Assembly (NCBI GenBank): GCA_965645245.1
Contig: OZ287067.1
Location: 2,728,001-2,792,000 of the forward strand
Direction of reading: 5' to 3'
From: Massalongia carnosa
Taxonomy: Eukaryota
Length of the DNA stretch: 64,000 nucleotides
In this document: piece after piece, positions 4,037 to 39,700 of the stretch
Layout of the letters: each line of letters starts with the position of its first letter
Position numbering within the stretch: position 1 is the stretch's first letter
The notes under the pieces: generated by a model
Databases searched by the model: none
The model's input: only the letters and a program-made list of their open reading frames with translations
Told to the model about the DNA's origin: nothing
Made by a program: the position numbers and the translations under genes

Positions 4037-4175
4037 GCCGCACCTGGAGCGTAGCTCCGGGTGCGGTCCATCGGATTTACAGTCCCGTGCCAAAAGTCTG
4101 CGGCCCAACCCGTGATTTTCGTGATTTCGCGTTTTCAACTCATCAACCCCCCATCTTCCACCTCATCATTTCACG

Positions 4176-5442: not shown

Positions 5443-5690
5443 CTCACTCGGCCTCATCCATCTCACTGACTCGTCGTCGACCCCACGTTGTCTCGGTGCC
5501 CCTACCTCGCTGTCAGTGCTTGCTGCTTTTCCTCACTCGGCCTCATCCATCTCACTGACTCGTCGTCGACCCCACGTTGTCTCGGTGCCCCTACCTCGCT
5601 GTCAGTGCTTGCTGCTTTTCCCATCTCACTGACTCGTCGTCGACCTCACGTTGTCCTCGGTGCCCCTACCTCGCTGTCGGTGCTTTTTCC
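5443..5690 (+). repeat. About 2.8 copies of an 89-bp tandem repeat in the retrotransposon leader
   Basis: Identical units start at 5443 and 5532; a 5'-shortened, slightly diverged third unit starts at 5621. Confidence 0.95.
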
Positions 5691-5692
5691 CA

Positions 5693-6706: not shown

Positions 6707-6751
6707 GGGGTTGGTGCAGGAGGCAGTAGAATAGCTTCAATAGCTGAATTC

Positions 6752-14716: not shown

Positions 14717-15525
14717 GTCTTCTCCGTAGGTGGAGAGCTGCGGGGAGGCGCTCCGAATAGCCAAAATTCTCTTCTCGCTGATACCATCGAGACATTTGCA
14801 CGACCTCGGGGTATATCATTCACGTCAACACCAAACTACGTCGGTAGCCTTGGGAAGAGACTGGCATGACCACTATCTTATCTTACTCATAACCCATCAA
14901 AGCGTCTCTGAAGCATCTAGTATTACCCAAAAATCACCTTACTTTATTCATACAATGCCTTGCTACCCTGCAAATTATTTACAGCTTGCTAGGATGATAT
15001 GATAAGATCCTTAAAAGGGGCTAAATGTAAGGTTGTACGTTTTTTTCTAGTTACATCTGCATAAAATCTCTTCAATTTTTAATAGCGAACCTTTGAATCC
15101 TTATAACCATTCTCACTTAAATATACGACTCGCTTCACGCTTTATTCTGGTGAGGTTACCACATCTTAGATTAATATACTCAGCGCACACAAGATTTGTG
15201 TATGACTGTTTCACATGGTTTGCGATCATTTGAGTCACGGGAATTTGCATGTTTTTGAAATCGGCTTTGTTAGAGAGTGCTTTTCCGCAGACATTGTCAT
15301 CAAGTCGCAACGCGACCGGCATTTTCATTGTCATCATCTCTGCTAATTTTGATAGCTTTGAGGTTGACATTTAGTCCTACTTGCAATCAACGGCTGGCCT
15401 CTATCATATCTTCTCCTTTAGGTATCCATGCTCTTTGGATTTCTAGATTGTGTTCAACCCCTTGTTTTCGTTGCATAATAGCTGGTAATTCTTGACGACT
15501 TCTTGACGACTTCTTGACGATCAAG

Positions 15526-16118
15526 ATGCGGAGTATTACCAAGACTTTTGCGGCACTCTATATAACAATCATAACTCTACTCCTCTTACTCCCAAGCAAC
15601 ACCCACGTTTTAGGGATCAGTTGTAAAGGAAATTCCGAGTGCGGAGATGCAGGTTACCTCATCCCATGCGCCTACCCCCCCACCATCTAGCAGGGACTCC
15701 ACGGCCGCGTCACCTTGGTCATTCGAGACCTCATCAACGGCATCGATGACCGCGACTTCTACGACAGCCACCAGCACATCGCCTGCATCCCGCAGGGGAT
15801 CCTTGGCTACATCTGTGCCTTCACCAGAGCCAACGACGTCTCGAGCTCGGGCGTGCTGCTGAAGAGGAAAATCCAGGAACTGGTCGATCATGGATGTACG
15901 ATGACAACCCCCCCCCAATAGGTTCCTTCTTCTCCCTAGCGTTGAACAGAAAAACCGAACGAAATTCCCTTTTACCAATATCTACCACTAAAAATATTAT
16001 ATATATATCCACAGATCAAATCTGCGGCTTCGCCCCTCTTGCCGATAACAACGATCCTAATCCCTTGGGGATCCTCACCGTCAACTAAGTCGCCACCTCC
16101 CATTGCGTCGGTTGCTAA
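15526..16118 (+). pseudogene. KP4 killer-toxin-like small secreted protein, disrupted
   Basis: Signal peptide then LGISCKGNSECG...HIAC...ICAF...LVDHG|QICGFAPL..NNDP..GILTVN*V; in-frame TAG at 15688-90 and TAA at 16086-88; intron about 15896..16014. Confidence 0.8.
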
Positions 16119-16802
16119 CCCCCCGTCTTCCGTCCCGTACGTGCCCTCGTGCGTTTCGTGCTCGCGGAGCACAGCGTTGCCTCTGCCGACTATCCTGTTC
16201 GCGCCTCTGGTGGTGACCACTACGGTTGAGAGCGATAGTTGTCTGTATAGTGTCATATCGGTGGGATATGTTGGGCTAGCTTTAGGTTATGTCACCGGGG
16301 GGGCGGGGGGGGGGAGGAGGGAAGAAAAGGCGGGAGGAGTGATAGGGGCTCGTGCGCTTGTTGATATCGAGATTAAGATTGAGGTTGACGATAGAGAAAA
16401 AAAAAGTCGTCGAGTGTAAAAGGGGAAGGGGGTGTGGACTGAGTATGCGTGAAAGTGAGAAGTGGTTTCTAGGCATTCTTCTATAATTCTTGAGTTTTAG
16501 ATATCTTTTTCCATCTTTCCCTTCTTTCTTTTCTTCCCTCAGTACCATTTCTATTCACGAACACTCACATCGCACTTTATGTCGCCAGATTTAACTATAG
16601 GGTCGATCTCTCGATCTCTCTCCCTCTATCCCTCTTCTCCCTTCCTTGGTATTTCACACACAACACACTTATCCAAAATCTACTTATTTCACCAAACTGC
16701 CTGTTACCATCATCATCATCAATCCATTCATCTAAATCAAACAATTCAGTCTAGTCCGATTTCCAATCCCCTCTTCTCTATCCCCTATCATCACTCTCAA
16801 GA

Positions 16803-18601
16803 CGTCGCCGGCGCGTTCGATACGGTATCTCATCAACGACTAACGCACAACCTACGGAAAAGAAAAATTCCAAAATGGATCACCGACTGGTTAAACAGCT
16901 TTCTGAGCGATCGAAGCACCACTTTAGCAATAAATCGAAAAGTCACCGGGCGGTTTGCGGTAAGAACGGGTATCCCGCAGGGCTCTCCCCTGTCATCCAT
17001 TCTTTACCTATTTTACAATGCAGATCTATTGGAAATATGTGATCGACCAGGCAAAAACACAAGTGCCATAGGATTCGTAGACGATGCAAACATTTTGGCA
17101 CATGGAAAAAGCACCGAGGAAAACTGCAAAACTCTAGAGGCAATACACAGACAATGTGAGACGTGGGCTTCCCGGCACGGATCCGTATTTGCTCCGACGA
17201 AGTACGAACTCATACACTTGTCCAGAAATCCCAAAAGATTCAACATGACTGCATCTATCAATATTGCTAGCACCGAAATTGAACCAAAAACGGACATCAG
17301 AATATTGGGCCTACAAATCGACACCAAATTGAAATGGGGACCGCACGTTCGCAAAGCGCAAGAGAAAATGGTCAAACAATCCATGGCATTGACAAAAATT
17401 TCCACATCAACCTGGGGTGCCACCTTCGCCAAGGCAAGGCAAGTTTACAGTGCCGTGGTGCGTCCGGCCATGACATATAGGTCAACCGTATGGCACATGC
17501 CCAAAGAAGTCAAAAAGTCAAAAACGTCAACGAGCAAGCTCTCCGTCATGCAAAACAATTGCCTTCGCACCATAGGCGGTGTCTTTAAAGCCACTCCATC
17601 TCAGTACTAGAAGCAGAGACATTCATAGCGCCCATAGACACGCATCTCGACATGCTACAAGCACAGGCAAGGCACCGGCTCCGAGCCGGAGGCCAATTGA
17701 AGATCATCTCCTCCGCATGCAACAAAATAGCTGAAAAACTTCGAGGCAAGGCAGGTCGCAAACGACTTCAAAAGCCCACCCCGGGAGAGCTGAAACACAT
17801 CTGGGCCAAAAGCCTACTGATCGACTCAAAAATAGTTCAACCACCAAAGGCACACCCACCATGGTTCGAAGTCTACCCGGCGTGGCACCGCGAAGCTACC
17901 GTTGCGGCAACGGCCCGACACAAGCAGATGCAAACAATTAAAGCACGACAAATGAAGGTCTGGAACGACTCGTGTTGCGCATATCAAAATCGCGTCATCG
18001 AACCCTCCATAGCACAATCAGTCCCACTGAGCAAAAAACGGCTGAAAATACACACACAGCTAAAAAAGGCAGAAAGCGCTCTAACAACACAAATCCGCAC
18101 TGGCAAAGTCGGGTTAGCTGACTTCCTCTACAAGCGACGGGTGCCCTCCGTCACCTCACCGGCCTGCTCATGTGGCTGGCACAGACAAACTCCAGAACAT
18201 GTAATCATGTTCTGCAGACTTATTGGCAATAGAGAACAGATGTTTCGCGCCGCCGGCACGAGCGACTATCAGCAGCTGACCGAATCATCAAAAACTCTGA
18301 AGATACTAACTGCTTGGCTAATGAAAACAGGCTTATTGAGTCAGTTCTCACTATTATTGTACAATCAACAGTAGTTGAACCTTTCTTTCTTTCTTCTCTT
18401 TTCACAAGGCATTACAGTTCCCACACGTCTTTTGCACTGCGTCTCCCGCCCGACGTCGACCCGTAGTCACATCGGACGGGTATCATGGGATATGGTTTTT
18501 ACACCTGTTAAAGGTTTTCCATGTAACATAACTTAGATAGCTTTGCCCGCATGGGCCGGCCTACGGCCGGTGTCATATCGGAGTATGAATACATCATCAT
18601 C
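16803..18601 (+). mobile_element. 5'-truncated LINE (Tad1-like), RT plus C-terminal Cys/His motif
   Basis: GIPQGSPLS, GFVDDA, CSCG...HVIMFC; (CAT)n tail; 16-bp TSD ATCATCACTCTCAAGA at 16787..16802 and 18602..18617; frameshift near 17597. Confidence 0.95.
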
Positions 18602-20230: not shown

Positions 20231-21622
20231 CTACGTATACCACGTGGGCTCCGGCACCTCATCCAGCAGCACGAACCGACCCAGCTCCGCCTCCTTGTAC
20301 GCCACCGGATCGTGCAAGCTGTGTGTGCGGATATCCCTCCAGAAACGGTCCAAACCCACCCCCCTGCCCGTCGCCCTCGCCCCAGTCGTCTCGAAGACTC
20401 CTTGGGTGACCCGGAGTCCCGTGTCGGTGGTAACGACTTTGACGCTGGCAACCCACTCTGCTGCTTCCCCGCGCTCTCGCGCGCTAAGGTCCCCCCGGCG
20501 GAAGGGGTAAGTGGCGTAGATATTGGCGAGCACGGCGCCGGCGCGGTCGGCCAGCGCTTCCGCGGCACGGAGGTGAGCGAAGAAGGAGCCGTAGCGAGAG
20601 AGGATGTGAAACTCGTCGACGCCCGAGGAGACGGGTTTGGGAGTATAAGGCCATGGGCGGGTGTTCTTTGCGGTGTAGGCTGTTGCAAAGGAGAGCGCAC
20701 CCAGAGCGATGCCGAGATAGAAGTTGGAGAAGACGAGTTGAATTCTGTTGGAGAAACGATATTGCTAGAACGATTCTCTTTTTCCAAGGGAAAAGGGAAA
20801 AGGAGCAGAGGCTGAAAGCCCGACTTACGTTGGGAGGAGAAGGGTGGCGTAGGGAATTGATAGGATGGAGTCAATGGGGGCTTTGGTTTTCGGGTCCCAG
20901 CCCAAGGCGTCGGTCCAGGGGACGCGGACTTTGTCGATGTTGACGCTGCCGGACTCGGTGAGCCGGAGGCCAACATTGTCCCAGTTGTGGGAGAACTGAA
21001 TTCCCGGCTGCTTGGTGGGGGCGAGGGCGAAAATATGCTTGTCTGTACCCTCGTAGACGCCCTCGAGAACCGTCAAATCAGAAACAACGCCCCCGGTGTT
21101 GAAGTTCTTGAAGCCGCTGAAGACGATGTGATCGCCGTCGTCGACAATCTTCTGGTCGTTGTCGCGCGGGTTCACGGCGCCGCCGACAAAGTAAATGTTC
21201 TCTGTGATAAGCTGCTGCGTCCGGTCTTTTTGCTCATCGGTGCCCACGACGTTGGCGGTCCAGGACCAAAGAAGATGGTAACCAAGAAGCATGCCAAGGG
21301 ATCCATCGCCTTTGGCGACCTCACGGATCACTTTGTAGGCTACTTCCCAGCTTTGCTCGCCGCCACCATACTTAGCTGGGCCAAGGACTCTGGTAAGACC
21401 GGAGGATTTGAGAAGGGCTACTTCTGCCAAGGGGGATTTGTTCGCATGGTCTCGGACTGTGGCATCTTTGGCTAGGATCTCGGCCACTTGGGTCGCACGC
21501 CGAACCCAGTCCTCGGGCTTCGACGGGAGAGGGGAGCTATTGTAAGTTTGGTGGTGAATGTTGTAGACAATGGGGTCTGTAGCTGGATGCTCTGCTGAAC
21601 GGTCTGGAGAGTAGGAACCCAT
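20231..21622 (-). CDS. DszC/MsuC/SfnB-like flavin-dependent monooxygenase (acyl-CoA dehydrogenase fold), one intron
   Basis: GMLLGYH, GAVNPR, KNFNTG, WDNVGLRLTESG, LDRFWRDIRTHSLHDPVAYK; intron with donor at 20828 joins LLLPT|IQLVFSNFYLG. Confidence 0.9.
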
Positions 21623-21736
21623 AGTGACTTGATCGAATCTGAGGTTTTCCCGACGGGCGTTAATTGACGATGATTGTCCAGACTCCTCGTCCTTTTGGAG
21701 GGATCGCTAAGGCTGGAGGTACAAGCTCCACTCCAT

Positions 21737-21746
21737 ATGGCATCAT
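21737..21746. promoter_or_regulatory. CYS3/MetR-type sulfur-regulon bZIP site
   Basis: ATGGCATCAT matches ATGRYRYCAT, 115 bp upstream of the DszC-like ATG; a 1-mismatch copy lies at 21936..21945. Confidence 0.5.
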
Positions 21747-22130
21747 AGCACTAAGTACCACCTCATATCTTAGCAAACTATTTCAAGCCTAGACCGGTAA
21801 TCTGGACTGCTTATCCCTTATCCATGGATGATCAGAAGTAGCCTCGTGTCAGTACGTCTGTGGGAATTCAGTCCTGCCTACCACCACATGAACTTATGCG
21901 CCTCGATGGGATGCATACCGTAGCGTCATGCATAAATGATGCCAATCGCTGGCCCTGCAGCCTTCACATCCAGGCGGTTCATGAGCCTGCATGAGAAGGG
22001 GTTGACCAGGTTACAATAAAGTTGATGCACTTATAAGGATTTGATCTAGACTAATTTCACGCCAGTTTTCTATTCCGTGAGTGATCGAGGCTGCAACAAC
22101 CGCTGTAAATCCTGTCCCGCCGAGCACACA

Positions 22131-23119
22131 TCATTCAGTCCGTGATTTCTTAAGTTGAAAGAAATGGCTAGTGTCCCCCATGGGGAAAGAAAACGACATC
22201 GACTGCTGGCACATCAGGTTGCCTACAGTGTAGTAGCCAAGCAATCCTGACAGAAATGCAAACACGCCGCCAGTCTTCTTCAACGCTATTGAGGTATCCA
22301 GATGACCATCAGCTGCGGAGAAGTACGACGCTGCTACCAACGTGAATGCCATTTGCACAGTAAAAAATATTCCAATGTAGACCAAATTGCTGCGTCTAAG
22401 TCAGCACGGTAAAAACCTTAATTTCCGGGGTGGCTTACAGTGGAAGAGAACCGATTAGGAAGAAGAAGTTCCATACGGCCCACACTATCGAGAATCAGCA
22501 GTGAAGCATAACAGCAACTCTCGATTGACATACTAAGAACGAAGTAACCCAAAGCGTTGTTATATTCCGCAGTATCGGTGCCGTACGAAGCCGCCACTCC
22601 AAAAAGAGGGGTGATGATAGCTCCAAACCCACCGTAAAAGAAGCCAAAAGCTGACAGAACGGTGTACGCGTACGTGTTTCCCAGAACAAGTTCCCATTGT
22701 GCTGAAATCACCATGCCAATTCCTAAAGGGCGTTAGATAGCGAGTGTGAATTTGCCAACTGTTAAAGCCCCACCTGCGACGAAGAAGAAGTTGCCAATAT
22801 ACACGTTTGTCGTTGTTACTCCTCGCCATTCCATCAACGAAAGCGCAAGCGTCGTTAATGTTGTTGCAAAGGCTCCAATTGCCAACGCTGTCTATCCTAC
22901 AATTTAGTCCCGTTCCATTATGAAGCCTCGTCGATGGGAACATACCGGACTGCCCAATTGTGCTTTCAAAGTCACCGGCACTGGCACCAGATGCGTTGTT
23001 CCGCTCTGTGATGACGACGTGCTCATTTCACCAGCAATCAACGTCTCGTATTTGCCTTCACGTTGGGGGATCTTGTTGGCAATATCCTCTAGCTGGTGTA
23101 TTCGGTTTTCGTGCGCCAT
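22131..23119 (-). CDS. GPR1/FUN34/YaaH (SatP/Ady2) family small-anion channel, multi-exon
   Basis: LGSP|TALAIGAFATTLTTL; AQWELVLGNTYAYTVLSAFGFFY; GGVFAFLSGLLGYY. Confidence 0.88.
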
Positions 23120-23842
23120 GGTCGAGTTCGCTCAGAAGAGAACCTCTTTGGAAAAGCGAGAAAGAGCGGGATGGTTTTGATATGACAGTTTAGCTACCTT
23201 CGAAGAACCGAAAGGCCACTGGGCGTTCCGGTGGCATGTTGATAGAGATTAAGGGATCATGCTGTCGATCGAGGAGACAATCTAGGTTTCTGTGAAGGCG
23301 AGAAGCTTGCTAGAGGTTGCTAAGAACCGCCATGAGCGTTGCATGATCACGTCTTCACGGGCTAGTAAGACACCATTATGTTCTTGAAAAGCATGACACA
23401 GATGTATTGGGGGGTGGTGAGGGTGAGTTGTGGTTGAGATACGGTGGTGATGCCCGATGGTGGAAAGATCCCCTCCACGTGAAATGGCGGATGCGGACCG
23501 GTGCACACAAGCCTCGTTCCCAGCAGCTTTAGCCGAATCACGCAATGCACCCCCCTTGCAGCAACTCGGCAACTCACCAGGACCATCCCAGTTATCACCA
23601 GCTTGTTACCTGCTAGCCACAAACTCCAGAGTGCCACCGACTCTCATCAAACGGGGAGAAAAGCCTAGGTCGCTCCTGGCTTGGCCCACCCACAGTCCGT
23701 CATTCGGAGCAAGTCGTGATTTGCTAGATAGTGGTAGCAGTAAATGGCATGATTCATATAACCAGGAGTAATTCAGCGTAGATAGCAGAGAATTCGTAAC
23801 AGTGACTGTTGGCTGTGCCTCGTTCATATTGTAGCTTGCACC

Positions 23843-26800
23843 ATGTCTCCTGCAATCTCGGAGACTCCCTCCGTGACGATACAGCCAGAAAAGAAAATTG
23901 AAGTCGACGCGGATCATGGAATCAAGCAAACAGCCAAATGGAATGGAACTGAAACCCCTGACAAAACCACAAAACCAGTGGATGGAATCACCAAAACCCC
24001 TGACAAAATCACAAAATCAGTGGATGGGATCACCAACGGCCATGTCTCAGACACGAATGGCCTGGAATCGGCGAGCCTGAAGTACAAGGGCGAGCAATCA
24101 ACAGAGGAGCAACAGATGGGCACTAGAACGGTTGGAGAGGAAACAAAATCGAACATAAAAAGCCTCGAGAATGGCGTCAATGGCGTAACGGGACATGACC
24201 AAGTCAGCGATGACCAGTTTCAGCGGCTTCCAAAACCACAACAAGACATACTGCTGCTCCATGGCCCTGGCCAGCGTTATCGTCTGGAGAAAGCGCACGA
24301 TATTCCGGAGCTGAAATCTATACATGAAATCCTGGTTCAAGTACATGAGGAATACTCTCAGCAGACCGCTTTTTTGCTGATATCCGTAGGTGGTCGCCAT
24401 TGGCTTGAACCCCGTCGACTGGAAAGGCCCGTAGGTATAATTTCAGTCTTCATGTCAGGACCTATCTAACGGGATATATAGCGATTACAACTTCGGTCTT
24501 CCTTCGTTTCCATGGATTAATGGAAGAGATTTCGCGGGAATAGTGGTCAAAGGCCCTCAAGCGGCCTCAAGAATCAAGGCTGGCGATGTGGTAAAGTCAC
24601 AAGCAGGAGAGAGTGTGTTGAATGCGAGCTGACGAGAATCGATAGGTATTTGGCCCCTCCACAGATTATCGCGACGCCCGCAAAGCGGCGTACCAGGAAT
24701 ATGTCGTGACAAACAATTTTAACGTCGCAAGAGTGCCAAAGAATCTTTCCGTCCAAACAGGAGCTGCTATAGGTGTAGCATTCGTCAGCGCCATCTTATC
24801 GCTAGGCGTTTCTTTAGGCGTCGACTTCGTCCAGGTTATCAAAGCCCCAATGGGCCCCAACTTGAAAGAAATTCTTGAGCGAATCGGCCGCGAAGCAATC
24901 CCAGAAGATGTCCGAACCGAGTGTTTTGATAGCATAGGAGCTGCGGAGAGACCTAAGCACGGAGATTGGATTGCAGTCTGGGGAGGTGAGTTTTCTAATC
25001 ATCCATGCAAAGTCGGGCGCTGATCGTTAAGCATCTTCAAATACTGGTTTAATGGCCATTCAACTCGCTAAACTTGCTGGTCTGCGCGTTATTTGTGTAG
25101 CAGATCTTGTTCGGCACGGAGCACGGTTGAATCAATTGGGGGCCGATGTCCTCGTTGATAGGCAGGATAGTAGCCGTGCTGTTGAGATCATCCGAAGCGT
25201 GACCAAAGGAGAGTTGCGGTTCGCATTCGACGCAGTAGGAAAGGAGACTGCTGGCTATCTGCAGGAAAGTCTTATCCAGCAAGAAGGTGCTACGCAGGCG
25301 CACCTAGTAGGTTTAACAGGACTCCCCAAAGAGGCCGCGCTGGGCGTGAAACATCATAGCGTTCCCATCAAGGTTTTCCATTCCACTCCAGTAATCGGAG
25401 AACCCATCATGACCTGGCTGGAGCAACTTCTGGCCGCCAATGCGCTGGCGCCTCCAGATGTGGATATCGCACAAGGGGGGCTTGAAGGAATCAATGACGC
25501 ATTGGATCAACTGAGAGGGGGCAATGTATCAGGAAAACGCATTGTGGTGCCGCTCGGAACTAGGCAAACGCCACGACAGAATGAAAATGATTCAGCTGAT
25601 AACACTAAAGATACGATAAAAGTTGGTAGTATTGAATACGCAGAAAAGCTCAATGAGGATCCTTCAAGGATTAAGTTCGCGTAAGCAGTCAAGACAACTC
25701 ACTTCAATAGCACTGGCTCATGATTACCAACAGTTACTGGGTGCCCAATGTTTCTGGAGGGTTGGTCATCTCAAGAATCGCCCAGAGAACCAAATGGGAT
25801 CTTGATTCCAACATCAAGTACGCCCGCACTGCTGAACAAGTCGGCTTCGAGTATGCCCTCTCACAGATTCGTTTTATGGCTGGTTATGGCGCAGTACGTC
25901 TCTCCAAACTCCAAACGAAGCTGATGCTGACGGTTCATTAGGATAACCAGCATGAATCTGTTTCTTTCTCTCAAGCGCTACTGCACTTTACAGAAAAGCT
26001 CATCGTAATAGCAGCACTTTTACCTGGTCCGTGGAATCCCGCCGTTGCTGCGAAGCAGATAGCGAGTATCGATAACTATACAAATGGCCGTATTGCCGTG
26101 AATATCGTTTCAGGCTGGTTCAAGGTACGCTCATACGGATAGCCCTCACTAAACCCAAATTTGATGAAAGCGATTTAGTTAGAATTCACTTCTATCGGCC
26201 AGTGGTGGTTGGATCACGCAGAGAGATATCGTCGAAGCAAAGAATTCATTTCCTGCTTGAAAGGCATCTGGACCCAGGACCAATTTAACTTCAAAGGCGA
26301 CTTCTACCAATTTCACGATTATCCGCTTAAACCAAAGCCAGTCGTGAAGCCAGGTCGTCCTCATCCAGAAATCTTCCAGGGCGGGAACTCTATCGATGCT
26401 CGAGAGAACGCAGCTACTGTATCCGACTACTATTTCATGAACGGTAACACACTAGAAGGCTTCCAGACACAGATTGCCGACGTGAAGCAGCGAGCAGAGA
26501 GAGAAGGCCGGCTGGATCAAGTCAAGTTCGCATTGAATGGCTTTGTCATTGCCCGCAAGACCGAGGAAGAGGCCATTCGAGTCTTGCAAGAAATCCAAGG
26601 AAAGGCCAACAAAGAAGCCGTGGAAGCTTTTGGCGAAGCAGTCCAAAACGCTGGCGCTAGCACCGCGAACAAGACCGGCATGTGGGCCAACTCGAAATTC
26701 GAGGACCTCGTTCAGTATAATGATGGGTTCAAGACCAAATTGATCGGAACGCCAGAGCAAATCGCTGATCGGATTTTGCTTCTCAAGTCACTTGGTGTCA

Positions 26801-26964
26801 GCATCTTACTGACCGCATTCCTGCATTACGATGAAGAGATTCAGCAGTTTGGGGAACAGGTTCTGCCGCTGGTAAGACAACTCGAAGCAGAAGGGCGGGG
26901 AAAGGATGTGGAGTATGAGATCAGCCTGACTGGAGACGTGTATCGTGAAAGGAAGAAAGAATAA
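23843..26964 (+). CDS. sfnG: Fusion of an MDR-superfamily (enoyl-reductase-like) oxidoreductase and an SfnG-like luciferase-family monooxygenase
   Basis: MDR motifs VVAIGLNPVDWK, GRDFAG, WIAVWG, AIQLAKLAG; intron 25681..25733 gives IKFA|YWVPNVSGGLVIS...QIRFMAGYGA..QHES, LPGPWNPAVAAKQ, QYNDGFKTKLIGT. Confidence 0.87.
23952..24035 (+). repeat. 42-bp in-frame tandem duplication in the N-terminal extension
   Basis: TPDKTTKPVDGITK / TPDKITKSVDGITN. Confidence 0.8.
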
Positions 26965-29703
26965 TCACGATGGGATGTCTGATAAATTGCTCCTCTTTTC
27001 TGTATTCTGTAGAGTGATGAAGGTAGTGCAGATAGCCTCATCTTCGAGCTAAACGCAGCATTGATGTTGTTAAGGTACATATCATGCTAATAACGGACGG
27101 AACCCTAGTAGGCACGTGGTAGGTAACGTTAGTGCGATATTTAATTCTACGCTAAGGAAGCCGACTTGAAATATATTACGTCAGATCAGTGACGAGTTCT
27201 GCCAACGAACTTCATCCTCGTTCTTGTTCATGCATCGTTTTTCTTCAACTATTCAAACATTGGAGAGTTACAGGCCACTGATAATGTGCACGTCGCTTAC
27301 AGCGCCGGCCACTAATGACAGCCTCCAGCTTCCCTCTACAAGTCTCACAGTTGAACTCGATGCACGATAAATGCCAACTCGTAGATAGCTCAGTATGCAG
27401 AAAGCTTCGGTTCGGTGTATAGATGAAACTATTGTCATAGAATAATCTGTTGACAGGGCCCAAAGCGTCTCTCTGGAATCCAGTCTAGTCAGAGCATGGC
27501 TGCATTAAGTCCTGTCCTGGATGCAACCCGTCGGATTAGCAAAAAGGGCTTGACCCCCAAAGTCCCGAGTATCCATCTCAGGAAAGTCACATATCTGCAT
27601 CTTGAATCTGCAATCTACGATTCAAGCCGTCATTGCACTTAGCCGACGCACACCAAACACTTTCTTAGACGGCTCCATCCATGCAAGGAACCAACTAAAC
27701 GATAACCGTCTACCAAACATGGTCATCTACCCTAGTCGCCTAGAGCTAGGCATCCGAACGAGACATGCGTTCGAAGTTATCCTTCTCGTTGGTGATTTGG
27801 CAACACCCGCTCAAAGTGTATGCGGGAAATCTTTGTTCCTGGTGAGTGGTGCCAAATCGCCATCGAGAGGAATAGCTTGGTGCTTTCCATGACCTCAACA
27901 CAGCCTGCGTTTCCCAAGATTGTACTTTTCGCGATGATGCTATTCTGCGGTTACAGTGTAACGCCACTACCCTCGACGAACGCAATCACACTGCTTTTAA
28001 GACACTAGACATGGTTTGTCTTGTGGACTCATAAGATGTGAAGGACTTCGATGTGGCAAGTTCGGCATGATTGATAAGATCGAAATATGTGAGTTATTGA
28101 AAAGGCAACTTGGCTGCATATTGGACCGGATTTCACTGGGCTGGACTACAATGAATACCTAGGTTTGTGAAAAGCCTCTTCCACAGAACAAGGATTTTGA
28201 AGATCGTGATCGCCCACGAAGCCAGGTTTGGGGATTCCACTACGTCAAGGAGGCGCAATCTAGACCAGTGTCGAACCTTCTCATTCTAACGGGGGCACCT
28301 GCTATCTAGTGAGATATATTGGCCCCCCTGTAAAAAGGTAGAGAAAAATCGCATTAACGAGACCGACGTTTGCCGCCATTTCCTAGTCTCACGGTATGTC
28401 TCTAAAAATAGGGGTTCGTTCATGGCATTGGTAGGTACCTGGATTCTGGTGCGTGCGTGCCGCTTCATGAGATTTTTCATTGGATTGAGCTTATTTGGAC
28501 ATTTACGAGTCAAAACCTCTACATCCGTAGTCGGCTCTTATTTCCTCTTCTTGCTGCCAATCTCTTATATGAGAAAGAAGTTATCCATGGATTTTTACTT
28601 CCGTATCTATCCTACTTCTAAATCACATTTCCAATCCACGTTTTATTTTCAGTGTTTCATTTTTCGTTTTCATTTTGGGTAAGGTCAAAGTTTAAGTTTG
28701 CCGTAGATACAAAGCACGCCATTCAGGAAAACATTGTCACATCCAATTGTAACTTACCATGCCGGGCTAATATCTCATACGCAGCAGAGTTTATGAGCGA
28801 TCGGTGCAGTTTGCCTTAGCTTGCGTCAGCTCGTCAATCTGGCTACTGTGTCCAAGCTTCGAGGCCGATCTTGGTTGACCACTGCGTCTATGGGTGTGGA
28901 ACATCAACAATGGCTGTTTATTGCGATTCAATCTGGCAATTGCCTGACATCACACACATCTGCTAAGATCCAAAAATGACATTATTCGACACAATGTCGC
29001 CATTCTTGATCTCCTGAAGCGCCATGATACCTAACTAGGGCAATGAGCCACTTGCCTTCCTCGTTTGGACGAATTCTTGACAAGCATGACTACACGGATA
29101 TCATAAGTCCATCCACCAATCCGAGCCTTCATATATAGGTCGCTACTGAGATATCTTTACAGCGATACAGTCTGAGGGTGCTACGATGGAGCGAACACTT
29201 GCGTCTCATACCGCTGAAATACTAACCAGGTTTTTCAAGTAGGGGGCCGCATAATGAAGTGCCATTCCATCATGATTTCTTACTATCTAGGGTTTTTTGT
29301 TCCCGTTCCTAGTATCATGATTACCCCCCTTACGCCCACTCACCAAGGATGGTAATTTGGGGCGAGTACGTCACACGGCCTTGTGCATAATGGGGGTTCT
29401 CGGACTTGTTTTGTAACCGATATGTCAGAAGGGCAGAGACAAGTAGCTAGCTGGTGGCGGCGTGATCTGGATCCAAATTAGGGCATGTTATGATGAAATC
29501 GGAGGAGAAGTCTCCATTTGCCCAGATACCGTCAGAATCTTAGTTACTGTATCTTGAGCCTAAACTTACAATATATCGGTTAAAACGTCCCTGCTCGTCT
29601 GAGGTATATTAACCCAAGGTGTTGCCGGAAGATTCACCCTTTATCTAACTTCATCGTTCATCGTCTCCTATTCAGAATCCTTCCCTTCACAGTCGTCACC
29701 AAA

Positions 29704-31458
29704 ATGAAGTTTGCGTCTATTATACTTGGCCTTGCTTTGCAAAGTCCGGCTTTTGCTCTTTGCCCCATGGGGAAAAGAGCTCTTGAGGACCCCAAAGCCT
29801 TAAAGTCTCTGTTCGTCAAGAAGGACACCATCCCAGAGAAAAGGCAGAGTGGACCAGGTGGTATTCCCTTCACCACTTTTAGCGAGGCTCAGCATATCGA
29901 CGTCTCCGGAGAGCACAAATGGGTTGCTCCTGGCCCTGATGACATTCGCGGGCCTTGCCCTGGACTTAATGTGCTTGCCAATCATGGGTACTTCCCTCAC
30001 AGTGGCGTAGTTCCCCTTACGACAGCTACCACTGCAACCAACGAAGTCTTCGGTCAGCTTGTTAATACCCTGGATCTGTCATGATTTCGGCTAATCCAGT
30101 TGCGTTTAGGCCTTGCTCTCAACTTTGGTATACCACTCACCGTTTATGCTACGTTAGTTGATGGAGATGTCGTGTAGGTTGACGAGTCCTTCCCCTGTTC
30201 ATCAAACGTTGCCGACGCCAAAATAGTGGTGACACTTGGAGTATTGGGGGCAAGCCGAAACAGACGGTGACATCATCGCTCCTGGGAGCAGGGGATGGTT
30301 TATCTGGGAGTCACAATAAGTATGAAAGCGATTCTAGCGTTTCTCGTGGTGGTAAGGAAAAACCACTCCCTTATTGGGTTATGAACGTTGCAAGCACTGA
30401 CGGAAATCGCAGATTATTACCTCGAGAATGGAGACGTTTCGGTATGCCACTCTCCTACAGATCCCTTGTTGGTGCTATCCAAGGCTGACTACGTGACAAT
30501 GATAGAGCGTGAAGGTGGCCAAGTTCAAGGCCCTCTACGATCTGGCCAAAGATGATCCGGTACCAAACTATAATCTTGATGTTCTGTAAGTTGTCTCTTC
30601 AAGGTTATACTTGCCTGGAAAACGGGTTTCTTACCATTGTTCAGAATCCGACATCGAAAAACCACCTTTGATTTGTCCAAGAGCACAAATCCGTACTTCT
30701 TCTTTGCTCCGTTCGCCGGACTTGCCGTCGCCAACGCGGCTCACACCTTTATCCGTACGTATCCCCTCCATCCCATTACCTCAACTGCGAATCTCTTAAC
30801 ACCTCTTGCAGCTGCATTAATGTCCAATCACTCCGCCGAATACCCAAACGGCATACTGGATAAAGAAACCCTGAAGTCGTTCTTCGCCATCACCGAGCAC
30901 ACCGACGGCTCGCTTACATGGACGCCCGGCTATGAGCGCATCCCAGATAACTGGTACCGCCGGCCACTCGGAGAAGCCAATGGGTACGCCCCAGCCTCGT
31001 TCGCCCAGGACTTGGTCAAAATGGCTCTTGTGGTCCCCGAAGCCGTCTCCGTGGGCGGCAACACCGGAACCGTCAACTCGTTTACGGGTGTCGATCTGGG
31101 CGACATCACGGGAGGCGCATACCACACGGCGGATCTGCTGAATCCGACCAAGTTCGTATGTTTCTTCTATCAGCTGACGTTAGCGGCCGTGCCGGACTTT
31201 TTACGCAGCCGGGTGTTGGGCACGCTGCTGGCGGGGGCGTTGAGCTTGCTGCATGACAAAATCGATCCGTTCGTGGACCCTTCTTGCGCGAAGATTGGTA
31301 AGTTTTCGATCTCTGTTCTCGCTCTTTCCTCTGGCGCACAACATATCTCCGGTAAAACGAAGGGAAGCTATACTTAGGTGCTGACGTAAGCAGGCAACTA
31401 CAACGATGCCTTCCTGGCGCAATTTCCCGGTGCAGCTGTCAACGCACCTCCTCCGTGA
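29704..31458 (+). CDS. Secreted heme-thiolate peroxidase / unspecific peroxygenase, multi-exon
   Basis: Signal peptide; RGPCPGLNVLANHG (PCP heme ligand); SHNKYESDSSVSRG; GYERIPDNWYRR. Confidence 0.9.
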
Positions 31459-32689: not shown

Positions 32690-34179
32690 TCAACCTCCAT
32701 CCTGTTGCTTCTGGGCGGCTAGCAAATCCTCCACAGTGCGAATCTCATGTCTCGCTTCGCCAAGGGTCTCAAATAACTCCTTGTATGTTGCGCACTGCGC
32801 CCGATCAATTCTCTCATTCTCGGTCCATCTGGGCGGCATCTTGCCTTGTCCAGGATCTCTGGCTCTCTGTGCCCAATCAACCAGACTATTGTGATATTCG
32901 AGGTCATCCGGAAAGGCCAAATGATGAAACCTTTTCCCGGTCCCATGTCTGGCAATAAGCGACTGCTCCCAAGATAGCATCTCGAATTTTGAGGGAAGAA
33001 CTAGACGACCCGCCCACACTCTCGATATCACGGCGGCCTGGCCTTCGAAGGTCCGGAACGGAACAATATGTTTTGGCAGAGCAGCGAATGCCAAAGAGGG
33101 ATGATCGATTGAAAATATATGCTCGAAGAGACGTTTTACTCTGTCACCAGTATCGATAAACTGCGGCACGATAGACGAAAGAAAGGGGTAGGAGTAAAGA
33201 TAGCCAGTGCAAAATACAACTGCATCAATGTGGGTCTCAACGTGCCCATTAGAAAACCTGACTGCTCTGATATGCTTCGATGGGGGTAATAATTCTGCAA
33301 TTTCTGGCATGTATACTTTCAACGGAGTAGGTTTTATCGGCGGGTTCGACCTCAGAGAGATCATGACCGGGGATTTGCTGTATGAGGAAATGTGCGTGGA
33401 AATGTCATGACCCGAGGCGGAATTTCCTACAACGAGTACCTTTTTCTCGGCAAAGTCCTGCGGGCGCTGGTAGAATTTCGAATGAGCTATAATCCCTTTA
33501 TAGGTGGCATTCCACTCGTTAGCTCCGGGGATATATGGTATATGCGGTACCGAATAATGACCGGAAGCTACTACGACAGCATCATAAAAGCCACGAGATA
33601 CAAGTCCACTGCCTATGGATAGAGTATCTACCAACCAGGTTTCTTTACCATCTATGTTGTAATAGCTTACGCTAGTGACCTGAGTTTTGAATTTAACAAG
33701 ATATCGGACATCCTTTCCATATGTTCTAAGATATTGCAAGGTGGCATCGCGGCTTGGAAATAACTGATTCTTCCTAAGTTCTTGTAGATCCGAAAATTCC
33801 ATCAGAAAATGCGGAATATTGGTCTCCAAACCTTCATACATCGGCGAGACGAATTCATATTCACCGGCGGCTTCTTCAGTTTCGGCGCTTGACCCTGGGG
33901 CTGTGGATCCAACCCGGATTGGTGTCTCTAGAAGTTGAAAAGGGTTCGTCTGAGGAACGTCTGTTTGCCCAGCCGAGGACTTAGAGTAGTTCCATAAGCC
34001 TCCAAAAGATGATCGCTGCTCAAAAATATCAATTGTTCTAAACTTTTTTTCTGCCAACAAGTATCTAAAATTTGGGTTAACACTGAAATCATGCTGTGGT
34101 TTGTTGCACCAGATGCCTACTTCGCTACAGCGATACCCGCAGGACCACCGCCAATGATAGCAATGTGGCTGATGTTCAT
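32690..34179 (-). CDS. Flavin-containing (thiol-specific, FMO1-like) monooxygenase
   Basis: IAIIGGGPAG; FMO motif YKGIIAHSKFY; VVGNSASG; FCTGY; one 5' intron. Confidence 0.92.
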
Positions 34180-34872
34180 TTTTAAGGCCCGAAGTTTTCT
34201 AAACAGGATCGAGATCGAGAGATTCTTGTCTCTTTTCACGGATCCAATGGCGAGAATATCAAACAGATTGCCCGGCAATACTATACTATTGTGGGAAATA
34301 TGGAACAAAATCCATCACCGCCATGCAAACCAAAAAGCGAGGGTGCGGCAGCTTGCCGACCGAAAACCAGCATTTGGAAATTTATCTAGGCCAAATCTCT
34401 TTACATTTCCAACTCGTTATTCACGCGATGATCAGCTCATAGCGATTGACACGCAATAGTGATCTAGATGATCTTGATGATGAAGCTGAAGGAGAAAATG
34501 AACATGCTGTGGATGGTTGAGTGGCCCCGGGTAGATCTCCCATGGCCTTTCGGCTTCTCAGACCACTCATCCGATGGTCACAACAACTCGTCCAGACAAC
34601 GACTTCATGTTATAAAATGTCCCCAGCGGAGGATCGTCGATCAATAGCAGAGAGTTCACGCCTACGATGTTGTGATAGATCAACGTTCTAGACTCCAAGC
34701 CCCTCACATGGCATAATACCCTGATGATGGACTACCGGCAAGAGCAATAAGCATAGTAAAAGTCTCGCTCGGTCTCGATCAATTGGCCCGTACTCATATG
34801 CATTCCGTCATACGATTGTGTGACCATGCCGATCGTTGATTTGACGTTTGACGTTTGATAAGAAGATCAAGG

Positions 34873-36754: not shown

Positions 36755-39700
36755 TTTCACTGGGCAAACGGGACAAACTGGGCAACGGGACTAAGTAAAT
36801 CCGAAACCATTACTTTTTGACCATTCTAGATGATGAAGCCTTCATTACATACATTTTACATACAAAATCAGCTTCAAATATCAGTAAAATATATTCATCA
36901 ATTTGAAACTTTATAATCATGGATGTTGGTAAAAAAACCACCTTCCACAAGACCTCCACCTCCTCATGTTTTCACCCCACCTCCATCTATCAACAACGAT
37001 TACAATCAGCCTTTTTGGCCTGGAAACAGGCCGATGGAGCTCTTTCCATCACGAAGGCAGCTACTCGATATGCTGTTTCAAAGTCAACTCTTCATGCCCG
37101 CATTCAGGGCCGTCAACCACGATTCACATCTGATCAAACTAAACAACTGCTGACCCCTGAGGAGGAAGACGCTTTGAAGAACTGGGTTTTACAACTATAC
37201 CCTTGGGGCTGGCCTGCTAAAATCGCCCAGTTACGTGAAATGGTCGTAGAATTACTGCGAGCAAGGGGGGATGATGATGATGATGATTGATTCTTGTACC
37301 GATCTGACACCGGCCGAAGGCCGGCCCATGCGGGCTATCTACTTATTCTTACAGGGAAAACCTTTTAAAGGGATAAAAACCATGCAGACTGCGCCATTAT
37401 CCCAAACGTGTTCCGTTTCTGGACTGCATTCTTCGCTCGATGTTCTGTGAAACCCTTGACAAAATGAGAGTTATAACTCGTATAACAGTTGCGATGCTAG
37501 TGAAAATTGGGTCAGCAAATTTGCCTTTATTATCCATGTGGTTAGTTTTTTCAACATTTTCGACGAGCTCATGATCGTTCGATAGTCGTTGGTGCCTATT
37601 TGTTTTAGCACTTCGTATCTGCCGTCGATTAGCCTGCAATGTAGAATAATGTGTTTGGCTGTCTGCTTCTGCCATCCGCACGAGCAGGCCGGGGTCATAA
37701 CGCCCGGTACCCGACGATTGAACAGGAAGTTTGCCAAGCCTATTTTTTCGGTGCGGATTTGCGTGGTTAGCGCGCTTTCCGCTTTCATCAGGTTGTTGTG
37801 AATCTTCAGTCTCGTCCTACTGAGAGATCCCAACTGTGCCTCTGTCGGGCGGGGAATGCGGTTCTGGTACGTCTTCCATTTGGAGTCCCAGCGTTCCTTG
37901 ATGCGTTCTGTGGTGGCCTTTGTGTGTTTCTCTATGGTAGCGTGTCGTGGTGCATTTTTCGAGGTGCGCCGGGTCGGGTGTGGACCAGGGCGGGGGCGAT
38001 GGGGGCATTGTGACTGGTGCCTCGTTATTCAACATTTTGCTGGCCCATTCGTATTTCAACTCTCCTGGGGTGAGGTGTTGCGTTCTTTTGCGTCCTGCCT
38101 TACCCCGTAGCTTGTTCGCTATTGTGTTGCAGGCTTTGGAAATCAGTTTCGCCTGCCCTGCGGCCCGTAGACGATACCTTGATTTTATCTGTAGATTGTC
38201 CAGATGCAACTCCATGGGGGCGATGAACGTTTCCGCTTCGAGAAATTCGACGGGTGTTGCCTTGAACGCCCCTGTCACGGTGCGTAAGCATTTGTTCTGC
38301 ATGACGCTGAGTTTGGACGTCGTGGCCTTGTTTTTCTTGATTTCCCTGGGTGTGTGCCACACGGTGCTTCCATAAGTCATTGCCGGGCGAACGACGGCGG
38401 TGTAAACCTGCTGGGCCTTCGCGAAAGAAGCTCCCCAGGTAGATGTCGATATTTTTGTGAGCGCCAGCGACTGCGACGTCATCTTTTCCTGTGTTTTCCG
38501 TATGTGGGCTCCCCATTTCAATTTGGTGTCGATTTGGAGGCCCAGAACTCGTATGTCCGTTTTCGGTTCTATTAGGTTGTTTTCTATTTGAATAGTAGCC
38601 GACATGTCGAATTTCTTTGGATTTCTGGACACATGAATGAGCTCATACTTATCCGGTGCAAATACGGACCCGTGGCGTGCCGCCCATAGTTCGCATTTTC
38701 TGTGAATTCTTTCGAGGGTTCTGCAGTTTTCTTCCGTGCTTTTGCCGTATGCCAACACATTTACGTCGTCTACAAATCCTAGCGCGCTCGTGTTTGTGCC
38801 GGGTCTCTCGCATATCTCTAAAAGGTCCGCATTGTAGAACAGGTAGAGAATAGGGGAAATGGGTGAGCCTTGAGGAATGCCCGTGCGCACCGCGAACTCC
38901 TCGGTTACTCGCCGGTTTATCGTTAGCGTGGTTCTTCTTTCCTTCAGAAAGCTTGCCGTCCAGTCTGTGATCCAATTCGGGATTTTCCTTTTTCGCAGAT
39001 TGTGTATCAGCCTGCGATGAGACACTGTAGCAAGGGGGATCATACTGTGCTGGGAGTCAATTGGCAACAGTATTTTTTACATAGTCATCCCGATTTGCAT
39101 GCTAAATACAGTCGCACACTTGATCAAGACCGATTATTCGCTGAGAATGAAGAGATATTTCAGCATTGGTTTGACCTCTTCCTCTCCATCAAGGAAAAGC
39201 ACGGAATTCTTGATGAAGATATCTATAACATGGACGAAAAGGGGTTCATGATGGGTGGTAGTGTTAAAGTGGTAATTTCTAAGCACGAAAAGCAAGCCTT
39301 TTCAGCACAATTAGGCAATCGAGAATGGGTGTCATCGATCGAGTCCATTTGTACTACCGGCCGAAGTTTACCTCTTTTCGTCATCTTCAAAGGAGTCAAC
39401 AAGCATAAGGCCTCGTACGATGTTCTGGAAGACATTGACACTGAAATAGCTACCAGCGAAAACGGATGGACAGACAATGAACTAGGTCTTGATTCATTGA
39501 AAAAGTGTTTTGAACCTGCTACTGCAAAATATCTACACGGTGAATATCGACTTCTTATAGTAGATGGTCATGCTTCCCATATTTCTACCGAATTCAGCAA
39601 GTTTTGCAACGAAAAGAAAATCATTCTTTTGTGTCTGTCTACCTCCACATACTACCCATATGTTGCAACCTCTGGACGTGAGTGTTTTTGGGCCCTTATC

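What the first reader, a model, noticed from the sequence alone, without database searches (positions are those of the whole stretch)
20231..26964. Candidate fungal dimethylsulfone/organosulfur scavenging cluster
Seen: three adjacent intron-containing genes encoding a DszC/MsuC-like monooxygenase, a GPR1/FUN34/YaaH channel and a divergently transcribed MDR::SfnG fusion, with a CYS3-type box upstream of the first. Known: in Pseudomonas, SfnG converts dimethylsulfone to methanesulfinate plus formaldehyde, MsuC oxidises methanesulfinate to methanesulfonate and MsuD releases sulfite; SatP/Ady2 channels carry small monoanions such as acetate. Inference: a eukaryotic sfn/msu-like module in which the channel may carry methanesulfinate or methanesulfonate. 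No MsuD/SsuD or MsuE-like gene is visible in this window.
Basis: partly seen in the sequence, partly recalled or inferred. Interest (0 to 1): 0.75.

Follow-up and report, generated by a model that had tools for sequence, protein, structure and literature searches.

The report
Fungal dimethyl-sulfur scavenging gene cluster
Three neighbouring fungal genes look like a starvation-switched kit for pulling sulfur out of dimethyl sulfide, DMSO or dimethyl sulfone, and one of them fuses the sulfone-cutting enzyme to a reductase whose job in this pathway is unknown.

Summary
Three clean spliced genes lie here: A, a DszC/SfnC-class monooxygenase (435 aa); B, a divergent AceTr channel (261 aa); C, a reductase(MDR)::SfnG fusion (921 aa). 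SfnG passes its family cut-off and keeps all eight sulfone-binding residues. CYS-3-type boxes precede A and also C. The A-B-MDR-SfnG order recurs, unfused, in two other fungal contigs; many fungi keep only MDR-SfnG. In Neurospora an identically annotated pair shares a CYS-3 peak and is induced by sulfur starvation. Gene A is no closer to MsuC than to DszC, and more likely oxidises DMS/DMSO to the sulfone upstream of SfnG. The zinc-free, LovC-fold MDR is the novel part: 12 of 16 well-flanked loci carry a flavin-dependent LLM monooxygenase of either of two subfamilies, and 14 of 38 have the box upstream (1.1 expected). It may be the missing flavin reductase (about 45%) or an aldehyde reductase (about 35%). 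No activity, expression or binding is shown here. No paper describing the cluster turned up in nine searches. The scan noted the fusion, with the reductase idea, earlier on another genome (e1-7646455).

The parts
20231..21622 (-). [quoted passage not shown]
   Evidence: Spliced model; Pfam/NCBIfam; homologue P0104 scores DszC 269 (cut-off 850) and SfnB 215 (cut-off 431); PDB ranks; tree
21737..21746 (.). CYS-3/MetR-type site ATGGCATCAT, 115 bp upstream of the gene A start
   Evidence: consensus from PMC8550094; a matching site lies upstream of the A orthologue in L030
22131..23119 (-). Gene B: divergent GPR1/FUN34/YaaH (AceTr/SatP) channel; exons 23119-22946, 22891-22774, 22722-22534, 22484-22439, 22389-22131; 261 aa; NPAPLGL replaced by SPTALAI; pore constriction F66/F123/V187
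   Evidence: Model; Pfam; SatP alignment of homologue P0345; residue map; orthologues 63-69% identical at the same place in L030 and L055
23744..23753 (.).
   Evidence: enrichment upstream of MDR homologues
23843..26964 (+). Gene C: MDR::SfnG fusion, 8 exons (23843-24340, 24390-24430, 24482-24590, 24646-24985, 25032-25680, 25734-25893, 25942-26124, 26179-26964), 921 aa, variable N-terminal about 125 aa
   Evidence: Model; homologues; junction test
24230..25555 (+). MDR domain of gene C (about aa 130-503): zinc-free LovC/enoyl-reductase-like fold; motifs LNPVDWK, GRDFAG, STDYRDARK, PIKVFH; Asp after the second Rossmann strand
   Evidence: Pfam ADH_zinc_N; alignments; AlphaFold model of orthologue P0254 pLDDT 85; best fold LovC 3b6z, Z 37.1, rmsd 2.3, 329 aligned; motif counts
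25670..26964 (+). SfnG domain of gene C (aa 543-921): dimethylsulfone monooxygenase, luciferase-like TIM barrel
   Evidence: TIGR04021 exon scores 93.6, 85.8 and 356 bits; close homologue P0001 571.5 bits against cut-off 383; PDB 8T0U 489 bits against 158 for the best alkanesulfonate monooxygenase; residues

Best explanation
A CYS-3/MetR-controlled module that scavenges sulfur from methylated sulfur compounds when sulfate is short. Step 1 (inferred, about 55%): gene A uses FMNH2 and O2 to oxidise dimethyl sulfide or DMSO to dimethyl sulfone. Step 2 (strongly inferred from family membership and residues): the SfnG domain cleaves the sulfone to methanesulfinate and formaldehyde. Step 3 (inferred): the sulfinate is oxidised to methanesulfonate, chemically or by A, and desulfonated to sulfite by an unlinked enzyme, probably a TauD/Jlp1-type dioxygenase, since no SsuD/MsuD was found in this genome. 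The fused MDR is a dedicated NAD(P)H-dependent partner of fungal two-component flavin monooxygenases. My preferred role (about 45%) is to reduce FMN for SfnG and A, in place of bacterial MsuE/SfnF/SsuE. The channel B moves a small anion of the pathway: methanesulfinate or methanesulfonate in, or formate out (untested). Shown here: gene structure, fusion, family placement, residues, synteny and motif enrichment. Not shown: any activity, any expression in this organism, any binding.
For: SfnG: TIGR04021 over cut-off. All 8 DMSO2-contacting residues of P. fluorescens SfnG (W11, R55, Y60, W121, F267, W285, Y296, N297) plus Q53 and N116 are kept (PMC11588060 passages; alignment; map). Synteny: L030 and L055 carry A(-) B(-) MDR(+) SfnG(+) in the window's order but unfused, and L025 has A, MDR and SfnG. 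Locus tags put A two genes from the fusion or MDR on a contig of the same length in 5 assemblies, and SfnG next to MDR in Stromatinia. Exophiala spinifera SfnG and DszC are g9837/g9836 (PMC11778650 Table 1). Regulation: L030 has the box in all three promoters; 14 of 38 non-redundant MDR loci have it within 1 kb upstream, against 1.12 expected and 16 of 387 background windows. Neurospora NCU10015 (methanesulfonate monooxygenase) and NCU10016 (thermophilic desulfurizing enzyme family) share one CYS-3 peak; NCU10016 rises from about 0 to 84-260 FPKM without sulfur and stays near 0 in the cys-3 mutant. Gene A's nearest bacterial relatives found (50-54%, Actinobacteria) include Streptomyces genes directly after sfnG in the order sfnG, A-like, FMN-reductase-like ORF, SfnB-like, SsuD-like. 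MDR: 12 of 16 clusters with at least 3.5 kb on both sides carry an LLM; over all 58 clusters, 17 carry SfnG and 21 an NtaA/DmoA-type LLM, 36 either. Bacterial SfnG occurs fused behind an MsuE-family FMN reductase in the same N-terminal slot (P0068). This genome has one MDR of this clade, one intact LLM and one A, which parallels the single MsuE that powers all monooxygenases in ADP1.
Against: The trio is not general. A is unlinked to the fusion or MDR in 11 of 16 comparable assemblies (some short contigs, some perhaps paralogues). Of 7 SfnG-bearing clusters with over 5 kb upstream, 5 lack both A and B. 4 of 16 well-flanked MDR clusters have no LLM. The genome holds other candidate flavin reductases: 1 weak FMN_red and 2 Flavin_Reduct loci. 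Neurospora induces a CYS-3-bound nitroreductase about 7-fold (NCU03696), so the MDR is not needed for that job. I know of no MDR that reduces free flavin (recall), and the closest folds are enoyl, quinone and alcohol reductases. Three flavin- or oxygen-site positions of SfnG differ (T52S, S188N, N284M). Orthology of the Neurospora genes rests on shared annotation names, not on sequence. The split of the MDR tree by LLM partner may only follow host taxonomy.
Confidence: 0.72

Rival explanations
1. Same pathway, but the MDR is an NADH-dependent aldehyde reductase that removes the formaldehyde or other aldehyde released by C-S cleavage; reduced flavin comes from an unlinked reductase.
For: SfnG and sulfonate-cleaving oxygenases release aldehydes (PMC5857272, PMC11502921 passages). 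One MDR locus without an LLM sits near a TauD gene (L034). The fold is the LovC/enoyl-reductase-like branch, whose yeast member YNL134C is an aldehyde reductase (recalled; search listing only). Unlinked flavin reductase candidates exist.
Against: Fungi already have glutathione-dependent formaldehyde removal (recall), whereas an FMNH2 supply is obligatory and no known flavin reductase family was seen in the cluster loci scanned (Pfam on selected ORFs of at least 130 aa from 23 loci). The link is to LLM enzymes far more than to TauD (36 against 1 of 58 clusters).
Confidence: 0.35
2. One reading: gene A is a functional MsuC that oxidises methanesulfinate to methanesulfonate downstream of SfnG.
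For: A's family aligns to MsuC (6U76) with fewer gaps than to DszC and shares its C-terminal P-P-T-aromatic-Y ending. The Streptomyces operon also holds an SfnB-like gene that could do the upstream step.
Against: DszC scores higher than MsuC for P0104 (235 against 210 bits). A keeps DszC's RTHSLHDP where MsuC has RTQTLHDP. In ADP1 all five purified group D enzymes made DMSO2 from DMSO at some level, two SfnC-like ones (Dms2, Dms3) are DMS/DMSO oxidases, and msuC is dispensable. The fungus has only one such gene.
Confidence: 0.3
3. Broader scavenger: the module acts mainly on other sulfides and sulfones (longer dialkyl, thioether or aromatic ones), and B is a hitch-hiking carboxylate channel unrelated to sulfur.
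For: P. fluorescens SfnG accepts diethyl- and ethylmethylsulfone. A resembles DszC. B is absent near most fusions and the genome has three other AceTr loci.
Against: The tight aromatic cage for two methyl groups is fully kept. B keeps its place and 63-69% identity in both fused and unfused clusters and shares a boxed promoter with the MDR.
Confidence: 0.15
4. The fusion is a gene-model artefact, or the three genes are chance neighbours.
For: No RNA was examined for this organism; the junction here lies next to an intron; a LINE-like element flanks the cluster.
Against: 14 of 17 loci have one open frame across the junction; named fusions occur in many independent assemblies; the same order occurs in L030 and L055.
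Confidence: 0.02

Closest known systems
Bacterial DMS/DMSO2 sulfur-assimilation pathway (Pseudomonas SfnG-MsuC-MsuD with MsuE; Acinetobacter baylyi Dms1-3, SfnG orthologue, MsuC, SsuD, MsuE; PMC13352529, PMC11588060)
   Same: True SfnG with intact substrate cage; a neighbouring group D monooxygenase; control by sulfur starvation.
   Different: Eukaryotic, intron-containing, CYS-3-type boxes; no linked MsuE/SfnF/SsuE and no SsuD/MsuD; a zinc-free MDR fused to SfnG; an AceTr channel instead of ABC transporters.
Streptomyces operon sfnG, A-like, FMN-reductase-like, SfnB-like, SsuD-like (plasmid loci L120, L121; uncharacterised)
   Same: The nearest bacterial orthologue of gene A with informative context (50-51%) lies directly after sfnG.
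   Different: It has what looks like a conventional FMN reductase (read from its sequence, not scanned) and an SsuD-like gene. Fungal SfnG is closer to other bacterial SfnGs (64-66%) than to the Streptomyces ones (59-61%), so joint transfer is not supported.
Neurospora crassa CYS-3 regulon: NCU10015/NCU10016 and NCU05885-NCU05888 (PMC8550094)
   Same: A pair with the same annotations shares a CYS-3 peak and is induced; an 'oxidoreductase' (NCU05887) shares a peak with a DszA-like LLM and is induced over 1000-fold, matching the MDR-LLM-FMO-MFS layout of L037.
   Different: The paper treats NCU10015 as an alkanesulfonate monooxygenase, and the passages seen do not discuss clustering, SfnG or an MDR; orthology was not tested by sequence.
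LovC-type trans-enoyl reductases and other zinc-free MDRs (PDB 3B6Z; quinone reductases Zta1, zeta-crystallin)
   Same: Fold (Z 37.1, 329 aligned), no zinc ligands.
   Different: Only 20-24% identity; clade-specific GRDxAG, TDYRDxRK and PIKxFH motifs; conserved Asp after the second Rossmann strand; no polyketide synthase among the window's ORFs scanned.
AceTr channels (SatP, Ady2/Ato1, Cyberlindnera Ato5; PMC13316224)
   Same: PF01184 fold; the F of the F-Y-L constriction is kept; Y-to-F and L-to-V as in the broad-range Ato5.
   Different: NPAPLGL and SYGxFW signatures are degenerate; sits in a sulfur cluster.

Membership tests
SfnG (TIGR04021) | Score over the curated cut-off 382.95 | tested here: met
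   Exon scores 93.6, 85.8, 356 bits (the sum is mine); whole homologue P0001 (92% identical over the last exon) 571.5 bits
SfnG (TIGR04021) | DMSO2-binding residues W11, R55, Y60, W121, F267, W285, Y296, N297; O2-site N116, Q53 | tested here: met
   All kept: W548, R592, Y597, W658, F811, W829, Y840, N841, N653, Q590; T52S, S188N, N284M differ
SfnG (TIGR04021) | FMNH2-dependent conversion of DMSO2 to methanesulfinate and formaldehyde | not testable with these tools
   Needs an enzyme assay
SsuD/MsuD alkanesulfonate monooxygenase | TIGR03565 over cut-off 518 | tested here: not met
   128 bits for P0001
DszC (NF043015) | Score over cut-off 850 | tested here: not met
   269 bits for P0104, which is 83% identical to gene A
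SfnB family (TIGR04022) | Score over cut-off 430.9; grouping with SfnB sequences | tested here: not met
   215 bits; SfnB rows form a separate 100/100 clade at 28-30% identity
MsuC/SfnC or Dms2/Dms3 | Orthology to the characterised enzymes | tested here: inconclusive
   No library model was hit; PDB scores close together for DszC, MsuC, 8CDA; the characterised sequences were not in my tree
MsuC/SfnC or Dms2/Dms3 | Substrate (methanesulfinate against DMS/DMSO) | not testable with these tools
   Needs an assay
Zinc-dependent alcohol or formaldehyde dehydrogenase (MDR) | Catalytic Zn ligands (Cys, GHE) and structural Zn cysteines | tested here: not met
   GRDFAG instead of GHE; only 2 Cys in the first 500 aa; 119 of 120 homologues have GRD[FL][AV]G
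LovC-like zinc-free MDR reductases | Fold and zinc-free active site | tested here: met
   Best structural match LovC in both searches
Known flavin reductases (MsuE/SsuE FMN_red, DszD/HpaC Flavin_Reduct, nitroreductase) | Family profile or fold | tested here: not met
   The MDR domain hits only MDR-family models; any flavin-reductase role would be by analogy, not membership
AceTr (GPR1/FUN34/YaaH) | PF01184 match, multi-helix membrane protein | tested here: met
   five hydrophobic peaks by a crude scan
Canonical acetate channels within AceTr | NPAPLGL signature and F-Y-L constriction | tested here: not met
   SPTALAI and F66/F123/V187
CYS-3/MetR regulon | Consensus site in promoters | tested here: met
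CYS-3/MetR regulon | Binding and induction in this organism | not testable with these tools
   Only the Neurospora data, for presumed orthologues

The most novel reading that the evidence does not exclude
The zinc-free MDR clade is a new kind of flavin reductase: one per fungal genome, parked beside or fused to whichever luciferase-like monooxygenase the lineage keeps, and feeding FMNH2 to all two-component sulfur monooxygenases. Gene C would then be a natural self-sufficient dimethylsulfone monooxygenase, and the cluster the core of an undescribed fungal DMS-to-sulfite route with an AceTr channel retuned for sulfinate or sulfonate.
Probability: 0.4. Interest if true: 0.82.

Novelty: new variant of a known kind. 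Interest (0 to 1): 0.62.

Why it matters
Fungi are known to grow on DMSO and sulfones, but a 2018 review says the FMNH2-dependent monooxygenases had not been characterised and no flavin reductase had been tied to them (PMC5857272); a 2026 Candida paper still calls their contribution unexplored (PMC13170222). This cluster names concrete genes for those steps and points to testable orthologues in Neurospora, Exophiala and Leotiomycetes. It would add fungi, including lichen-forming ones, to terrestrial DMS/DMSO turnover. If the MDR reduces flavin it is a new activity for a very large enzyme family and a ready-made single-chain oxygenase. If it reduces aldehydes the cluster is still a new fungal pathway module, but less surprising.

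Tried and rejected
RNA: no RNA holder listed for the stretch; contigs of two holder runs gave the same sequence and nothing on splicing. Complex prediction of MDR with SfnG: no verdict, the job was not folded, so physical contact stays open. Names and locus tags of gene B orthologues could not be obtained, so the gene between A and the fusion or MDR in the five tagged assemblies is not identified. A prokaryotic genome scan with single protein P0104 found nothing; the alignment scan found 7 loci. The four of those genomes searched have no SfnG over cut-off, and the Microbacteriaceae neighbourhoods were uninformative. No MDR relative on plasmids at E 1e-10. The ESM Atlas gave only generic MDR and AceTr cluster names. 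A second LLM in the own genome is only a 33-43 aa remnant. Joint transfer of A and sfnG from Actinobacteria was considered and is not supported by identities; no rooted SfnG tree was built. The flanking FMO (32.7-34.2 kb) did not match the FMO type of the NtaA clusters well (22-26%) and is left out of the cluster. The Aspergillus metR paper passages gave nothing on these genes. Paper searches listed no description of the cluster or fusion; the library lacks most subscription papers, and Linder 2012 and the MsuC structure paper were not seen.

Full report
Observation. The three genes are real. Gene A (minus, 21622-20231, one intron) gives 435 aa; gene B (minus, 23119-22131, four introns) 261 aa; gene C (plus, 23843-26964, seven introns) 921 aa; none has an internal stop. 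Pfam and NCBIfam place A with DszC/SfnB-type acyl-CoA-dehydrogenase-fold oxygenases, B in GPR1/FUN34/YaaH, and C as an MDR followed by SfnG. The nearest named homologues are from lichen-forming ascomycetes (A: Peltigera 85% over exon 1; SfnG: Teloschistes 85%), so the host is probably a Lecanoromycete (inference). A LINE-like element lies to the left and a heme-thiolate peroxidase and an FMO to the right.

The fusion is genuine. No stop and no in-frame Met separates the domains (last Met 456, SfnG from 543). Of 99 proteins of 458-2000 aa matching the SfnG exon, 77 also match the MDR part (my count). Named ones come from genera of Lecanoromycetes, Dothideomycetes, Chaetothyriales and Arthoniomycetes (class names from my knowledge), plus one Sporobolomyces protein. 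In 14 of 17 metagenome loci tested one open frame crosses the junction; the other three (L025, L030, L055) stop after the MDR and have SfnG as the next gene. Stromatinia has the two as adjacent tags EAF04_005372/005373.

SfnG is a member of its family. The window's exons score 93.6, 85.8 and 356 bits on TIGR04021, and the close homologue P0001 scores 571.5 against a cut-off of 383, but only 128 on the SsuD model. Against PDB it gives 489 bits for P. fluorescens SfnG, 158 for the best alkanesulfonate monooxygenase and 100 for the entry I recall as MsuD (7JV3). All eight residues reported to bind DMSO2, and Q53 and N116, are kept; T52, S188 and N284 are changed (PMC11588060, passages; numbering counted on the alignment).

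Gene A cannot be called MsuC. Its homologue P0104 fails the DszC (269/850) and SfnB (215/431) cut-offs and scores 235, 210, 210 and 204 bits against DszC, PDB 8CDA, MsuC and TdsC. It has features of both MsuC and DszC. The two Streptomyces members lie directly behind sfnG, followed by an ORF that reads like an SsuE-type FMN reductase, an SfnB-like and an SsuD-like gene (in L120 the sfnG call rests on identity). In Acinetobacter baylyi all five purified group D enzymes made DMSO2 from DMSO at some level, the SfnC-like Dms2 and Dms3 are DMS/DMSO oxidases, MsuC has kcat 0.006/s and its knockout grows normally (PMC13352529: abstract, Results parts 1-2 of 3, Discussion, supplement part 1 of 5). With one such gene in the genome I put the upstream role at about 55% and the MsuC role at about 30%.

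Synteny is real but partial. L030 and L055 hold A(-) B(-) MDR(+) SfnG(+) as here, with B 63-69% identical; L025 holds A, MDR and SfnG. By locus tags A lies two genes from the fusion or MDR in 5 of 16 assemblies where both were listed (cf. Caloplaca, Coniocarpon, Bogoriella, Chaenotheca, Mollisiaceae sp.) and is unlinked in 11 (only the best 120 hits were listed; some contigs are short and some pairs may be paralogues). Five of 7 SfnG clusters with over 5 kb upstream lack both A and B. A published table lists Exophiala spinifera SfnG and DszC as g9837 and g9836 without comment (PMC11778650, passages).

Regulation. The Neurospora DAP-seq consensus is ATBRCGCCATC (PMC8550094, passages). Relaxed to ATBRYGCCAT after I saw the sites, it marks both A (115 bp) and C (90 bp). 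The independent test is on other loci: L030 has it in all three promoters, and 14 of 38 non-redundant MDR loci have it within 1 kb upstream of the match, against 1.12 from shuffles and 16 of 387 other windows. In Neurospora, NCU10015 and NCU10016 share one CYS-3 peak (311 and 580 bp from their starts) and both are induced without sulfur in a cys-3-dependent way, although the authors' filter lists NCU10016 as not confirmed (supplement rows). Their annotations are the same strings carried by SfnG homologue P0033 and by several A homologues; orthology is inferred from that only.

The MDR. An AlphaFold model of the stand-alone orthologue P0254 (pLDDT 85) matches LovC best (Z 37.1, rmsd 2.3, 329 aligned, 24% identity). 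It has no zinc ligands; TDYRDxRK is present in 120 of 120 homologues and GRD[FL][AV]G, NPxDWK and PIKxFH in 119 of 120; an Asp follows the second Rossmann strand in 104 of 120, which suggests NADH (inference). Eighty metagenome loci (the best of 174) fall into 58 clusters: 17 carry SfnG, 21 an NtaA/DmoA-type LLM, 36 either; many of the rest are too short to tell; of 16 with at least 3.5 kb on both sides, 12 have an LLM and 4 do not. Neurospora NCU05887 ('oxidoreductase') shares a peak with a DszA-like gene and is induced over 1000-fold; it may be this MDR (not tested). The fused ascomycete MDRs form one clade (99) and the NtaA-linked ones mostly another, which may simply follow host lineage. 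This genome has one such MDR, one intact LLM and one A (counts are lower bounds). Bacterial SfnG is sometimes fused behind an MsuE-type reductase in the same slot (P0068), and in ADP1 one reductase serves all the oxygenases. That favours a flavin-reductase role. Against it: unlinked FMN_red and Flavin_Reduct genes exist here, Neurospora induces a nitroreductase, these oxygenases release aldehydes, and I recall no flavin-reducing MDR. I give 45% flavin, 35% aldehyde, 20% other.

The channel. B lacks NPAPLGL and has F66/F123/V187 at the F-Y-L constriction. The same Y-to-F and L-to-V pair marks the broad-range Cyberlindnera Ato5, and Ato1 carries formate (PMC13316224, passages). DMS, DMSO and DMSO2 are neutral, so the cargo is more likely methanesulfinate or methanesulfonate taken in, or formate sent out (inference). 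Three other AceTr loci exist in the genome.

The gap. No SsuD/MsuD was found. Four TauD-family loci exist on other contigs, and Jlp1 is the fungal desulfonase verified in the review (PMC5857272, parts 1-2 of 4). Whether any of them takes methanesulfonate is unknown.

Novelty. Nine paper searches listed no account of this cluster or fusion; subscription papers, Linder 2012 and bioRxiv supplements were not seen and may bear on this. Candida papers show DMSO use under Met4/Met32 control without assigning enzymes to it in the passages seen (PMC11502921, PMC13170222). What this window adds is the four-part cluster, the promoter enrichment, the MDR link to a second LLM subfamily, and the Streptomyces and Neurospora parallels. 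Verdict: a real, conserved, probably sulfur-starvation module; a new variant of a known bacterial pathway with one possibly new enzyme role; interest 0.62.

Noticed in passing
window 15496-15921 (+): Small, apparently secreted, intron-split gene; the second piece matches Pfam Kp4 (37 bits, over cut-off). Not studied further.
   Followed up: no
window 16501-18374 (+): LINE-like reverse transcriptase in two overlapping frames directly left of the cluster; further DDE, Tc1 and LTR-type relics at 1388-9535 and 36907-39886.
   Followed up: no
window 29584-31377 (+) and 32690-34198 (-): Heme-thiolate peroxidase (Peroxidase_2) and an FMO-like gene 2.6 and 5.7 kb right of the cluster. Both families can oxidise sulfides, but they were not seen in the syntenic loci; an ATBRYGCCAT site lies at 34708-34717, about 0.5 kb upstream of the FMO frame.
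   Followed up: partly
G000:C3:3084851-3084979 (L085, L102): 33-43 aa remnant, about 70% identical to the C-terminal part of an NtaA/DmoA-type LLM, with no rest of the gene detected: a likely lost second monooxygenase.
   Followed up: partly
L037, L039, L052, L064, L066, L075: A second recurring fungal cluster: the same MDR family with NtaA/DmoA-type LLMs, an FMO and, in most, UNC-93/MFS or SSF transporters; it matches the layout of Neurospora NCU05884-NCU05888 and may salvage S-alkyl-cysteine-type compounds (guess).
   Followed up: partly
L013, L014, L015, L024: Methionine sulfoxide reductase MsrA lies next to the fusion in these loci; msrA is also CYS-3-bound in Neurospora. L006 and L024 have an NtaA-type LLM beside the fusion.
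   Followed up: no
P0047 (Stromatinia EAF04_005372): This SfnG carries an insertion, a deletion and a G-to-W change in otherwise invariant motifs: a decaying gene or a faulty model.
   Followed up: no
L120:7858-13223, L121:7728-13228: Streptomyces plasmid operon lysR, sfnG, A-like, FMN-reductase-like, SfnB-like, SsuD-like: an apparently complete DMS-to-sulfite set, unannotated in those records.
   Followed up: partly
P0068, P0074-P0076: Probably bacterial proteins with an FMN reductase fused in front of SfnG; read-through artefacts were not excluded.
   Followed up: no
window 55733-55742: The only other strict ATGRYRYCAT site in the window; no gene was assigned to it.
   Followed up: no
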